The position numbers and the translations under genes are program-made. This document shows positions 28,533 through 31,025 of a stretch of DNA of 64,000 nucleotides, piece by piece. Below the pieces are notes generated by a model. That model was not told the DNA's origin, ran no database searches, and worked only from the letters and a program-made list of their open reading frames with translations. Position 1 is the stretch's first letter. Each line of letters starts with the position of its first letter. Source of the DNA: Dictyostelium discoideum (taxonomy: Eukaryota). The stretch covers positions 2,240,001 to 2,304,000 of the forward strand of contig CM000155.2 in assembly GCA_000004695.1 (NCBI GenBank), read 5' to 3'.

Positions 28533-28823
28533 GAGTCCCATAATTTAATTTTAAAAAATGAACAAAATAAAAGAAAGTTTTTTTTATTTTGAAAAGTTAT
28601 GACCAAACTCTTAGGATCATTTCTAGAGTATCGTCTATTAAAATTATTCATCAATAATTTTTCCTCTTTCACAGCTAGGATGATGATACACACTCACTAT
28701 ACGAAAGCGTGAAACCGTTATTATCAAATGATTCGTTTATTTGTTATTAACATTGATGACCGTCTAATTCAGGGATGAATTGGTTGTATGGTGGGATTCG
28801 TACTGGCTCTTATTTTTAATTAA
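28533..28823 (+). repeat. Left copy of a 290 bp direct repeat. It is about 97-98% identical to 30736..31025.
   Basis: The sequence gagtcccataatt...aatgaacaaaataaaagaaagttttttttattttgaaaagttatgaccaaactcttaggatcatttctagagtatcgtctatt...ggatgaattggttgtatggtgggattcgtactggctcttatttttaattaa recurs almost verbatim 2.2 kb downstream in the same orientation. Confidence 0.8.
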
Positions 28824-29064
28824 TTTAAAGAAAAACAAATATGTAGTTATTAATAATTTTTATGCTTTAAATGAAATGTAGTTATTAATAATTTCATAGA
28901 AAGCAAAATAATATATTTAAAAAAAAAAAAATCTATTTTATTAAAAAAAAAAAATCTATTTTATTAAAAAAAAAAAATATCATCTTTTTCTCAATTTTTA
29001 TTTTTATTTTTTTACTTTTTTTAATTTGATTCTTTTTAATTATTAATTAATTTTACACTACAAA

Positions 29065-29866
29065 ATGTCAGAAGGAGATTGTAGGTTTATTTAGTTAATA
29101 AATAAAAAAAAAAAAAAAAAAAAAAAAAAATCAAGTGTTTCTAATTTCATTTTTAAAAGTAGGTTTTGCATCTTTAGGATTAAATGAACAACTAATAAAT
29201 AATATAAAACGATATGGAATTACAAAATTAACACCTTTTCAAATGGAGGTAATAAAAGAAATTAAAGAAAACAGTAATGTTATTGTTGATTCAATTGAGG
29301 GCACAGGTAGGACAATAAGCTTAATTATTGGTACATTAGATAAGATTGATGAAACAAAACAACAACAAGAACAAGAACAACAAGAACGACAACAAACAGA
29401 TCAACAATTTTCATTTCCTCAAATTTTAATGATCTTACCAACAAAAGAGTTATCACAAACAACAAAAGTTATTTATTCATCTTTAGGAGGTGGTGAGAAT
29501 AATAATAATGACTTTAAAGTACTATCATGTATTGGTGGTGTAAAAATATCAATGGATATTGAAATTTTAAAAAAAGGTAATACTCAGATTTTATTAGGTA
29601 CACCAGGAAGAATATCTGACCTATTTTCAAGAAAAAGGTTCGATACAGATAATATTAAAATATTGGTTTTCGATGAACTTGATGAAATCCTTTCAAGAGG
29701 TTTTGAATGTCAATTGGAAGATATTATTAAACCTCTAAATAATAACAATAATTTGCAAATTATTGTTTCAACATCAGGAATTAACGAATTAACTTCAAAT
29801 TTTATAAATACTTTTATAAAGATTCCAAAGATCATTAAATCACAACAAGAACCATATAAATTTTAG
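29065..29866 (+). CDS. eIF4A-like DEAD-box helicase N-terminal (RecA-1) domain-only protein with degenerate catalytic motifs. There is a tentative 16 nt first exon at 29065..29080 (MSEGD), and the main exon is 29160..29866.
   Basis: GFASLGLNEQLINNIKRYGITKLTPFQMEVI aligns with eIF4A [30 protein letters not shown]. Walker A reads EGTGRT instead of SGTGKT, and the DEAD box is DELD. Motif III reads STS instead of SAT. The ORF ends (…EPYKF*) without the C-terminal helicase domain. The track ORF has no ATG (GTG start). An upstream ATGTCAGAAGGAGATT|GTAGGT donor and TTTTAAAAG| acceptor would join in frame, but this exon is speculative. Confidence 0.5.
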
Positions 29867-29985
29867 TTTACTTTTTTTTTTTTTTTAAAAAAATAAAAAA
29901 CACATTAAATATATTTTTTTTTTAATTTATTTATTGGTTTATTTGATATTAAATGTTTTCAAACTATTTATGGATATATTTTAAT

Positions 29986-30312
29986 TTATTGTTTTGTTTG
30001 GTTAATTTGATTTCGAATATTATTTAATTGATCATTGGTATTTTCCATACTCTTTATTAAAGATCTTGACAATATATCCATGATACGTGCTTTTTTATTT
30101 TCAATTTCTAATAATTCTTTCATAAATTGTGTATATTTTTGAAATTGTCTCTTATTGAAACTCAATTGTTCCTCCAAAATTTCATTCATAGTTACTAATT
30201 GTCTATTTTTATTATTAGCTTGGTTATCTAATAAATTATCTAAATTTAAAATCTTGATGTCGTTGCTATTTAAAAAATATAAAAGATAACTTTTATTTGA
30301 GTCAGATGACAT
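29986..30312 (-). CDS. Hypothetical 108 aa coiled-coil protein (MSSDSNKSYLLYFLNSNDIKILNLDNLLDNQANNKNRQLVTMNEILEEQLSFNKRQFQKYTQFMKELLEIENKKARIMDILSRSLIKSMENTNDQLNNIRNQINQTKQ)
   Basis: The ORF is clean, and its non-poly-N composition is atypical for intergenic AT-rich sequence. It has no recognisable family and lies between the two 290 bp direct repeats. Confidence 0.35.
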   Translation of the reverse strand: MSSDSNKSYLLYFLNSNDIKILNLDNLLDNQANNKNRQLVTMNEILEEQLSFNKRQFQKYTQFMKELLEIENKKARIMDILSRSLIKSMENTNDQLNNIRNQINQTKQ

Positions 30313-30668
30313 AAATTGTAAAATAAAATTTTAAAAAAAAAAAAAGTTCTTTCTTTTTTAAAAGAATTTCTTTTTTTTTTAATAATAGTAATTTATATCT
30401 GTAATCCATTTTTAATAAAATCTTTATATCTATATTATTTTTTATTCTTTATTTATTTTTTATTTTTTTTTATTTTTTTTTTATTTTTTTTTTAAACAAC
30501 AATTTAATTTTATTTATTTTAAAAAAAATAAAAAAAAAAAAAAAACCCAATCCTTGAGGGGGTAACCATTTTTTTATTTTCATATCATTTTGTGTATTTT
30601 TGAGTGTTCATTTTATCAACTAAATAAAAATTAAATAATTTAAAAAAATATAAAAAAAAAATTGAAAA

Positions 30669-30708
<40 letters not shown>

Positions 30709-30735
30709 CATATCCAACAATTTTAAAAAAAAACA

Positions 30736-31025
30736 GAGTCCCATAATTAAATATTAAAAAATGAACAAAATAAAAGAAAGTTTTTTTTATTTTGAAAAGT
30801 TATGACCAAACTCTTAGGATCATTTCTAGAGTATCGTCTATTAAAATTATTCATCAATAATTTTTCCTCTTTCACAGCTAGGATGATGATACACACTCAC
30901 TATACGAAAGCGTGAAACCGTTATTATCAAATGATTCATTTATTTGTTATTAACATTGATGACCGTCTAATTCAGGGATGAATTGGTTGTATGGTGGGAT
31001 TCGTACTGGCTCTTATTTTTAATTA
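30736..31025 (+). repeat. Right copy of the 290 bp direct repeat (see 28533..28823)
   Basis: The sequence is near-identical to the left copy. The few differences include ataatttaatttt versus ataattaaatatt and gattcgttt versus gattcattt. Confidence 0.8.

What the first reader, a model, noticed from the sequence alone, without database searches (positions are those of the whole stretch)
28533..31025. 290 bp near-identical direct repeats bracketing a 1.9 kb two-gene insert
The repeats are about 97-98% identical, in direct orientation and 2.2 kb apart. They enclose a degenerate DEAD-box domain gene (plus strand) and a small coiled-coil gene (minus strand). Their size and arrangement are LTR-like, but the enclosed ORFs are not retroviral. 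The repeat has moderate GC and contains tgatgaccgtctaattcagggatgaattggttgtatggtgggattcgtactggctc. Possibilities are a solo-LTR pair from an unknown element that captured host genes, a segmental duplication, or a non-autonomous element.
Basis: seen in the sequence. Interest (0 to 1): 0.55.

Follow-up and report, generated by a model that had tools for sequence, protein, structure and literature searches.

The report
Paired U3 snoRNA genes, not LTRs
The two 300-bp direct repeats are two complete copies of the gene for U3 small nucleolar RNA, a long-known RNA needed to make ribosomes, each with its own Dictyostelium promoter motif, so they are ordinary multi-copy RNA genes kept alike by gene conversion and not the ends of a mobile element.

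Summary
Window 28527-28826 and 30730-31029 are direct repeats with 5 differences in 294 nt, 2203 bp apart. They bracket a DEAD-box-like gene (+) and a 108-aa gene (-). The LTR reading is wrong. Each repeat is one full U3 snoRNA transcription unit: Rfam RF00012 at 90 bits (gathering score 34) over the whole model, preceded at -63 by the Dictyostelium upstream sequence element TCCCATAA. The repeat starts just before that element and ends about 20 nt past the RNA 3' end. There is no credible target-site duplication, no TG..CA termini, no PBS or PPT, and no retroelement ORF. D. discoideum U3 ('D2 RNA') has been known as a multigene family since 1980. Seven related loci show that the U3 - DEAD-like - U3 arrangement is old: it occurs in four discoideum-clade genomes and in D. 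firmibasis. Outer flanks group by position while the U3 units group by genome, with mosaic tracts, which indicates gene conversion. One unexpected result: in D. firmibasis the sandwich lies on another chromosome, and a solo U3 marks the syntenic site. The cassette may therefore have moved by U3-U3 recombination, but this is unproven. Overall this is an ordinary, already known kind of feature.

The parts
28527..28826 (+). Direct repeat copy A = complete U3 snoRNA transcription unit (promoter element to 3' flank)
   Evidence: the repeat finder D3; alignments; mismatch list
30730..31029 (+). Direct repeat copy B = second complete U3 snoRNA transcription unit
   Evidence: the repeat finder D3; alignments
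28536..28543 (+). DUSE (Dictyostelium upstream sequence element) TCCCATAA of copy A, 63 nt before the RNA 5' end
   Evidence: (motif scan). The motif and its ~63-bp distance are as published (PMC3188802; PMC7919456). It is invariant in all 12 U3 copies compared
30739..30746 (+). DUSE TCCCATAA of copy B, 63 nt before the RNA 5' end
28599..28808 (+). U3 snoRNA gene copy A (~210 nt). GAC box 28601-28603; box A'/A 5' domain 28605-28633; box C' 28678-28686; box B 28706-28713; box C 28753-28763; box D region 28795-28807
   Evidence: Rfam RF00012 at 90.1 bits, E 2.1e-18, model 1-219/219; box coordinates; consensus structure with 3 compensatory pairs. The last base (28808) was added to reach the published 210 nt and is not determined
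30802..31011 (+). U3 snoRNA gene copy B (~210 nt). It differs from copy A at one base (30938 A vs 28735 G, RNA position 137, in a hairpin loop). Boxes: 30804-30806, 30808-30836, 30881-30889, 30909-30916, 30956-30966, 30998-31010
   Evidence: Rfam RF00012 at 90.2 bits, E 2e-18, full model
28809..28836 (+). Conserved T-run / AAT..AATGAAAAAAA-type 3' flank of copy A. Candidate termination or 3'-end formation signal (inferred only)
   Evidence: 12-copy alignment. The flank is conserved even among D. firmibasis copies whose promoter spacers have diverged
31012..31036 (+). The same conserved 3' flank for copy B
29065..29866 (+). Enclosed gene 1: 240-aa protein with an eIF4A-like N-terminal RecA domain only and degenerate motifs (GKT>GRT, DEAD>DELD, SAT>STS). 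Exon 1 29065-29080, intron 29081-29159, exon 2 29160-29866
   Evidence: Pfam DEAD PF00270 at 91.8 bits; 100% match to D. discoideum ACTFIT_009207; best PDB matches are eIF4A N-domains at E 1.6e-24; ortholog alignment
29986..30312 (-). Enclosed gene 2: 108-aa protein with no Pfam family. Conserved in discoideum-clade genomes, not detected in the D. citrinum or D. firmibasis loci
27210..28332 (+). Context: phosducin-like gene immediately upstream of copy A
   Evidence: PF02114
31200..32927 (-). Context: GH47 alpha-1,2-mannosidase gene immediately downstream of copy B
   Evidence: PF01532, 509.8 bits

Best explanation
Each repeat is an independent, complete gene for U3 small nucleolar RNA, the D. 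discoideum RNA first described as 'D2'. Shown: a DUSE promoter element (TCCCATAA) sits 63 nt upstream of a ~210-nt RNA. That RNA matches the whole U3 covariance model and carries the GAC, A', A, C', B and C boxes plus a box D region. The repeat boundaries coincide with this promoter-to-3'-flank unit. From established knowledge of the family: U3 assembles with box C/D proteins into the U3 snoRNP. It base-pairs through its 5' domain with the 5' ETS and 18S regions of pre-rRNA inside the small-subunit processome, and it is required for the early cleavages that release 18S rRNA. Inferred from comparison of 12 copies in 6 genomes: the two copies are old, and their near-identity is maintained by gene conversion together with purifying selection on the RNA, not by recent transposition or duplication. 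The two protein genes simply lie between two members of a dispersed multi-copy RNA gene family.
For: Rfam RF00012 hits at 90.1 and 90.2 bits (gathering 34), E ~2e-18, cover model 1-219/219 in both copies, and these are the only U3 hits in the window. DUSE lies at exactly -63 in both copies, which matches the published motif and ~63-bp distance. [quoted passage not shown] The consensus structure of 12 copies has 59 pairs, 3 of them with compensatory double changes. The same U3 - DEAD-like - U3 layout occurs in L001, L008, L009, L007 and, on another chromosome, in D. firmibasis L004. For concerted evolution: outer flanks group by position (A with A, B with B; z 5-12), while within-genome A and B flanks are unrelated. 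The U3 units instead group by genome. L009 A and B are identical over spacer plus RNA yet differ from the window copies. L007 A and B share three private changes, including a compensatory pair, but differ in a middle tract that L007 B shares with L008. All three D. firmibasis copies share 13-15 differences from D. discoideum although their promoter spacers differ at 18-31 of 64 positions.
Against: I have no expression data for these two particular copies. I could not compare them with the published D2/V00190 sequence or with dictyBase annotation. The box D position reads UCGUAC rather than the canonical UCUGA in all 12 copies, so the C'/D k-turn motif is non-canonical here. Complementarity to Dictyostelium pre-rRNA could not be tested because no rDNA was in hand. 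The single-sequence folding z-score is only -2.1. Gene conversion is inferred from sequence patterns; strong selection plus repeated duplication and loss is a less parsimonious alternative.
Confidence: 0.94

Rival explanations
1. The repeats are the LTRs (or a pair of solo LTRs) of an unknown retroelement or non-autonomous element that captured two host genes.
For: Only the geometry fits: ~300-bp direct repeats 2.2 kb apart. A 6-mer TGAAAA occurs both 3 nt upstream of copy A and inside the 3' flank of copy B.
Against: The repeats are full-length U3 genes with promoters. The termini are not TG..CA, and no PBS or PPT is present. The TGAAAA match lies in the 3'-flank motif found after nearly all 12 U3 copies. 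By my rough estimate it has about a 1-in-4 chance expectation in this A-rich sequence. The interior has only a DEAD domain gene and a family-less 108-aa ORF. The unit occurs only twice in 64 kb.
Confidence: 0.01
2. This is a young, plain local (segmental) duplication of a U3 gene. The copies are 98% identical simply because the duplication is recent, with no homogenisation.
For: Identity is high and restricted to one short unit. D. citrinum and the syntenic D. firmibasis site carry only one U3.
Against: The two-copy arrangement around the same DEAD-like gene is shared by four discoideum-clade genomes whose GH47 orthologs are only 85-90% identical. It is also seen in D. firmibasis. Outer flanks are orthologous by position. 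Private substitutions are shared by both copies within a genome, and mosaic tracts are present.
Confidence: 0.05
3. The U3 - DEAD-like - U3 block behaves as a relocatable cassette. Recombination between the direct U3 copies pops out a circle and leaves a solo U3. Homologous re-integration into another dispersed U3 gene then rebuilds the sandwich elsewhere. This adds to the best explanation rather than replacing it.
For: In D. firmibasis the syntenic GH47-phosducin interval has the same neighbours (arrestin, Usp, PTEN-like, GH47, phosducin, PA14) but holds one solo U3 and no DEAD-like gene. The DEAD-like ortholog lies on another chromosome between an HSA/SNF2 gene and VMP1, again between two co-oriented U3 genes. 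Only one DEAD-like homolog per genome was found at E<=1e-10.
Against: The direction of the change is unknown. I could not fetch the reciprocal site in D. discoideum (one search returned no D. discoideum ortholog). Ancestral duplication of the whole block followed by differential loss explains the data equally well. D. citrinum has a third arrangement (one U3, no 108-aa gene). The D. purpureum SNF2 locus has no U3.
Confidence: 0.2
4. One of the two copies is a non-functional U3 pseudogene.
For: U3 pseudogenes are common in other eukaryotes (from my own knowledge). In strain ACTFIW (L008) copy A has insertions in box A and the hinge and scores 73.8 vs 86.7 bits.
Against: In the window both copies keep an intact DUSE at -63 and all boxes. 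They differ by a single loop nucleotide.
Confidence: 0.05

Closest known systems
U3 small nucleolar RNA (Rfam RF00012); Dictyostelium 'D2' RNA gene family (Wise & Weiner, Cell 1980; GenBank V00190)
   Same: Full-length covariance-model match. Same length (~210 nt), same organism, and the GAC/A'/A/C'/B/C boxes are present. It is multi-copy and dispersed, as that paper's title states.
   Different: Nothing essential differs. I could not align the window copies to V00190 directly. The box D region is non-canonical relative to the Rfam consensus.
DUSE-driven small RNA genes of Dictyostelia (spliceosomal snRNAs, Class I RNAs), often in closely spaced pairs (Hinas & Soderbom 2007 as cited in PMC7919456)
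   Same: [AT]CCCA[AT]AA element ~60-63 nt upstream of the RNA start. Closely related copies occur in pairs. The same window holds a Class I RNA pair with the published DUSE + TGTG-box layout.
   Different: Here the pair is 2.2 kb apart with two protein-coding genes in between, and no TGTG box is present.
Multi-copy U3 genes evolving in concert in other eukaryotes (yeast SNR17A/B and rodent/human U3 gene clusters, from my own knowledge; Euglena U3 family, PMC2784804)
   Same: Several near-identical U3 genes per genome, with identity extending into the promoter and 3' flanks.
   Different: Euglena U3 genes are linked to U5 or tRNA genes, and tandem U3 genes were looked for there but not found. 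The Dictyostelium pair instead brackets a specific protein gene.
LTR retrotransposons of D. discoideum (DGLT-A, Skipper, DIRS-1)
   Same: Only the superficial geometry: direct repeats of a few hundred bp around a ~2-kb interior.
   Different: No TSD, no TG..CA termini, no PBS or PPT, no gag/pol, and the repeat is a conserved cellular RNA gene.

Membership tests
U3 snoRNA (RF00012) | Score at or above the curated gathering threshold over the full covariance model | tested here: met
   90.1 and 90.2 bits vs 34; model 1-219/219; E ~2e-18
U3 snoRNA (RF00012) | 5' domain with GAC, A' and A boxes | tested here: met
   AUGACC...AAACUCUUAGGAUCAUUUCUAGAGUAUCG at RNA 3-35 aligns to the consensus. It is invariant in 11 of 12 copies
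U3 snoRNA (RF00012) | Box B / box C pair and box C' | tested here: met
   AGCGUGAA (108-115), UUGAUGACCGU (155-165), GGAUGAUGA (80-88)
U3 snoRNA (RF00012) | Canonical box D (CUGA) near the 3' end | tested here: inconclusive
   The aligned position reads UCGUAC instead of UCUGAG in all 12 copies. The terminal stem around it is kept
U3 snoRNA (RF00012) | Conserved 3'-domain secondary structure supported by covariation | tested here: met
   59 consensus pairs, 3 with compensatory double changes (UA/CG, CG/UA, CG/AU). The sequences are closely related, so statistical power is low
U3 snoRNA (RF00012) | Base-pairing of the 5' domain and hinges with the 5' ETS and 18S pre-rRNA | not testable with these tools
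U3 snoRNA (RF00012) | Expressed, capped, nucleolar ~210-nt RNA | not testable with these tools
   Known for D2 RNA from the literature, not for these two loci specifically
DUSE-type Dictyostelium ncRNA promoter | [AT]CCCA[AT]AA about 60-63 nt upstream of the RNA 5' end | tested here: met
   TCCCATAA at 28536 and 30739, each 63 nt before the U3 start. It is conserved in all 12 copies while the spacer diverges. The octamer alone is not enriched in the window (11 vs 9.4 expected), so position is what matters
LTR retrotransposon / solo-LTR pair | Target-site duplication abutting the outer ends | tested here: not met
The only shared 6-mer lies inside the conserved U3 3' flank and does not abut the repeat
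LTR retrotransposon / solo-LTR pair | TG..CA termini, PBS after the 5' LTR, PPT before the 3' LTR | tested here: not met
   The unit begins GAGTCCC and ends TTAATTAA. It is followed by AAAGAAAAAC and preceded by a T-run with CATATCCAACAATTTTAAAAAAAAACA
LTR retrotransposon / solo-LTR pair | Internal gag/pol (RT, integrase, protease) or remnants | tested here: not met
   Pfam finds only DEAD (PF00270) in one ORF and nothing in the other
Repeat-bounded relocatable cassette (hypothetical) | Same repeat-bounded unit at non-syntenic addresses, with a solo repeat at the empty site | tested here: met
   D. firmibasis L004 (cassette) vs L005 (syntenic site with solo U3)
Repeat-bounded relocatable cassette (hypothetical) | Reciprocal solo repeat at the other address in the sister lineage | not testable with these tools
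   The D. discoideum HSA/SNF2-VMP1 locus could not be fetched

The most novel reading that the evidence does not exclude
Dispersed U3 snoRNA genes act as portable homology arms. The block U3 - (eIF4A-N-domain-like pseudo-helicase gene) - U3 has been moved between chromosomes by pop-out and pop-in homologous recombination between U3 copies, leaving a solo U3 at the vacated site. Its persistent sandwiching across species reflects a functional tie between this Walker-A-mutant DEAD-like protein and the U3 snoRNP / small-subunit processome.
Probability: 0.15. Interest if true: 0.5.

Novelty: already known. Interest (0 to 1): 0.2.

Why it matters
For the scan, this removes a false 'unknown LTR element' lead. 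Any AT-rich Dictyostelium window can show such moderate-GC direct repeats wherever multi-copy small RNA genes (U3, snRNAs, Class I RNAs) lie in pairs, and an Rfam pass plus a DUSE check at about -63 resolves them. Biologically, the locus is a clean, small example of concerted evolution. The conversion tracts can be read directly from six genomes. The comparison also yields a modest new observation worth a specialist's look: a degenerate eIF4A-like single-domain gene that stays bracketed by U3 genes even though its chromosomal address differs between D. discoideum and D. firmibasis.

Tried and rejected
(1) LTR features (TSD, TG..CA, PBS/PPT, retroelement ORFs): searched and not found. (2) Extra or degenerate U3 copies and fragments in the window and in 10 fetched loci, using nhmmer with a 12-copy profile: none beyond the full-length genes. 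(3) Primary papers on DUSE and Dictyostelium ncRNAs (Aspegren 2004, Hinas 2006, the genome paper): not held in the library, so I used secondary citations. (4) The supplementary alignment containing the published D. discoideum U3 (PMC2784804) is held only as images, so no direct comparison with V00190 was possible. (5) Third homolog search, with the D. firmibasis HSA/SNF2 protein, to reach the reciprocal D. discoideum locus: it returned no D. discoideum ortholog. The D. purpureum locus it did return has no U3 and different neighbours. (6) Homolog of the 108-aa ORF in D. firmibasis and D. citrinum: none found by tblastn. (7) Other DUSE octamers in the window (35238, 40092 and others): no RNA-like sequence lies 60 nt downstream and the count is at chance level. 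(8) An apparent 'B-type upstream flank' on the single D. citrinum U3: it is probably inflated by T-runs, so I did not rely on it. (9) The SNF2-type gene at window ~15.3-16.9 kb as a possible synteny anchor to L004: only 43-55% identical, and it is the ISWI-type paralog that is syntenic with L005 instead.
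Full report
OBSERVATION. The repeat exists as described. The repeat finder reports one long direct pair in 27-33 kb: 28527-28826 and 30730-31029 (300 nt, 98%, spacing 2203). From the first shared block (28533/30736) to 28826/31029 there are 5 mismatches in 294 nt. A 21-mer from inside the unit occurs exactly twice in the 64-kb window, against zero in 100 shuffles. The unit has GC 0.29 (the RNA part 0.34) in a window of GC 0.23. Between the copies lie two genes. One is a DEAD-domain gene on the + strand (exon 1 29065-29080, intron 29081-29159, exon 2 29160-29866). 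The other is a 108-aa ORF on the - strand (29986-30312).

WHAT IT IS. A gathering-threshold Rfam scan of the whole window places a full-length U3 snoRNA (RF00012) inside each copy. The hits are 28599-28807 (90.1 bits) and 30802-31010 (90.2 bits), with model positions 1-219 of 219 and E about 2e-18, against a gathering score of 34. The alignment shows the GAC box, boxes A'/A (AAACUCUUAGGAUCAUUUCUAGAGUAUCG), box C' (GGAUGAUGA), box B (AGCGUGAA) and box C (UUGAUGACCGU). The box D position reads UCGUAC rather than UCUGAG, and it does so in every copy I examined.

Exactly 63 nt upstream of each RNA start lies TCCCATAA (28536 and 30739). [quoted passage not shown] The repeat begins 3 nt before the DUSE and ends about 20 nt after the RNA 3' end. 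The repeated unit is therefore precisely one small-RNA transcription unit.

The same Rfam scan finds two Class I RNAs (a Dictyostelium-specific family) and two tRNAs. The DEAD-like protein is 100% identical to a D. discoideum protein. A second D. discoideum assembly is 99.7% identical over 20 kb and carries both U3 genes. [quoted passage not shown] 210 nt.

THE LTR READING. The unit starts GAGTCCC and ends TTAATTAA, not TG..CA. Nothing like a PBS follows copy A, and no polypurine tract precedes copy B. One shared 6-mer (TGAAAA) lies near the outer ends, but it does not abut the repeat. At the 3' side it is part of a motif (AATGAAAAAAA) found after nearly all U3 copies in all species. The interior ORFs have no retroelement domains. 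An nhmmer profile of 12 U3 copies finds no further copies or fragments in the window or in ten related loci.

COMPARATIVE EVIDENCE. Using the neighbouring proteins I fetched the locus from other genomes and scanned them with Rfam and tblastn. In window orientation, running from phosducin to GH47, the intervals are:
- D. discoideum (window, L001 and ACTFIW L008) and two 'D. cf. discoideum' genomes (L009, L007): U3 - DEAD-like - 108-aa gene - U3.
- D. citrinum (L006): one U3 - DEAD-like, then GH47, with no second U3 and no 108-aa gene.
- D. firmibasis syntenic interval (L005, with the same arrestin, Usp, PTEN-like, GH47, phosducin and PA14 neighbours): one solo U3 and nothing else.
- D. firmibasis DEAD-like ortholog (57-58% identical): it lies on another chromosome-scale contig (L004) between an HSA/SNF2 gene and VMP1. 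There it is again bracketed by two co-oriented U3 genes, in a 284-nt repeat 96% identical and 1742 bp apart.

WHY THE COPIES ARE SO ALIKE. The outer flanks (150 nt beyond the unit) group by position across genomes, A with A and B with B, at z 5-12. Within a genome the A and B flanks are unrelated. The two positions are therefore orthologous across the discoideum clade, and the duplication predates these lineages.

The units themselves group by genome instead:
- L009 A and B are identical over promoter spacer plus RNA (0 differences in 273 nt) yet differ from the window copies at 5-8 positions.
- The window A and B RNAs differ at 1 position, whereas window B and L008 B differ at 4.
- L007 A and B share three private substitutions, including the compensatory pair C-G to A-U in the 3' hairpin. 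They differ in a middle tract that L007 B shares with both L008 copies, which gives a mosaic.
- All three D. firmibasis copies, on two chromosomes, share 13-15 differences from D. discoideum. They differ from each other at 1-5 RNA positions but at 18-31 of 64 spacer positions.

This is the signature of gene conversion, with tracts centred on the RNA, acting on top of purifying selection. That step is inferred, not shown. RNAalifold on the 12 copies gives the classical 5' hairpin and 3' domain with three compensatory pairs, consistent with functional RNAs. In the window the single RNA difference (28735 G / 30938 A, RNA position 137) lies in a hairpin loop.

MECHANISM. Shown: two intact promoter-plus-gene units for U3. 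From established knowledge of the family: U3 snoRNP pairs with the 5' ETS and 18S parts of pre-rRNA in the small-subunit processome and is needed for the early cleavages. Several gene copies supply an abundant RNA. Inferred: homogenisation by gene conversion. Not settled: the polymerase. DUSE serves both Pol II and Pol III genes according to PMC7919456, and a T-run follows the 3' end.

THE ENCLOSED GENES. The 240-aa protein is an eIF4A-like N-terminal RecA domain only. Its best PDB matches are eIF4A N-domains at E 1.6e-24. The Walker A motif is GKT>GRT, DEAD is DELD and SAT is STS. The K>R change is conserved in all six genomes, and the ORF is intact everywhere. It evolves faster than its GH47 neighbour: 86, 87, 76, 72 and 57% identity against 90, 85, 87, 83 and 79% in the same genomes. 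Weak sub-threshold Pfam hits to CMS1 and UTP25, both 90S pre-ribosome proteins, most likely reflect only a shared DEAD-like fold, which is my own reading. The 108-aa ORF has no family and is restricted to the discoideum clade.

WHAT REMAINS OPEN. The sandwich is conserved, but its address is not, and a solo U3 marks the syntenic D. firmibasis site. Recombination between the direct U3 copies would excise a circle and leave exactly such a solo copy. Re-integration into another U3 gene would rebuild the sandwich. Whole-block duplication with differential loss fits equally well. I could not fetch the reciprocal D. discoideum site, so I give the recombination model about 0.2.

VERDICT. The identity is settled as two U3 snoRNA genes with DUSE promoters (confidence 0.94), an already known kind of feature in a species where U3 has been known as a multigene family since 1980. 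Interest is low (0.2). A small comparative curiosity is recorded for specialists.

Noticed in passing
window 55096-55240 and 58089-58230 (+): Two Class I RNA genes (RF01414, 57 and 53.5 bits). Each has DUSE TCCCACAA and an AAATGTG 'TGTG box' about 60 nt downstream of it, which is the published D. discoideum Class I promoter layout. The two promoter-plus-gene units are near-identical and about 3 kb apart, so they form a second duplicated small-RNA gene pair in the same window.
   Followed up: partly
window 21000-23730: A tandem duplication of about 1.39 kb (blocks 75-92% identical, period 1351-1413 bp), next to small ubiquitin-like ORFs at 19430-19651(-) and 21064-21297(-).
   Followed up: no
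window 29065-29866 (+); orthologs in L004, L006-L009: The gene between the U3 copies encodes only the N-terminal RecA domain of an eIF4A-like DEAD-box protein. The Walker A lysine is replaced by arginine (GTGRT) in all six genomes, and DEAD is DELD/DEVD (YRLD in D. citrinum). It looks like a conserved but fast-evolving pseudo-helicase. Sub-threshold Pfam hits to the 90S pre-ribosome factors CMS1 and UTP25 were seen.
   Followed up: partly
L005 12115-12322 vs L004 9542-11491 (D. firmibasis): The syntenic GH47-phosducin interval of D. firmibasis holds a solo U3, while the U3 - DEAD-like - U3 block lies on another chromosome between an HSA/SNF2 gene and VMP1. The block's address is therefore not conserved although its architecture is.
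   Followed up: partly
L006 11900-15000 (D. citrinum): A third arrangement: one U3 upstream of the DEAD-like gene, no second U3, no 108-aa gene, and about 1.65 kb of unrelated sequence (with a called 177-aa gene) towards phosducin. The upstream flank of this U3 scores best against the D. discoideum copy-B flank and the D. firmibasis cassette flank, but T-runs may cause this.
   Followed up: partly
L008 14552-14763 (D. discoideum ACTFIW, copy A): This U3 copy has a 1-nt and a 4-nt insertion in or next to box A and a 3-nt deletion in the hinge (73.8 bits vs 86.7 for its partner). It may be a decaying copy or contain assembly errors.
   Followed up: no
window 28795-28807 and 30998-31010; all 12 U3 copies: The box D position of Dictyostelium U3 reads UCGUAC instead of the canonical UCUGA(G). 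It is invariant across D. discoideum, D. citrinum and D. firmibasis.
   Followed up: no
window 28809-28836 and 31012-31036: A T-run followed by AAT.AAT..AATGAAAAAAA within about 30 nt of the U3 3' end is conserved in nearly all 12 copies, including D. firmibasis copies whose promoter spacers have diverged. It is a candidate termination or 3'-processing signal.
   Followed up: no
window 18615-18686 and 46132-46204 (+): tRNA-Cys(GCA) and tRNA-Gln(TTG) genes. The tRNA-Cys is conserved at the syntenic position in D. firmibasis (L005 18355-18426) and D. cf. discoideum (L007 21303-21374).
   Followed up: no
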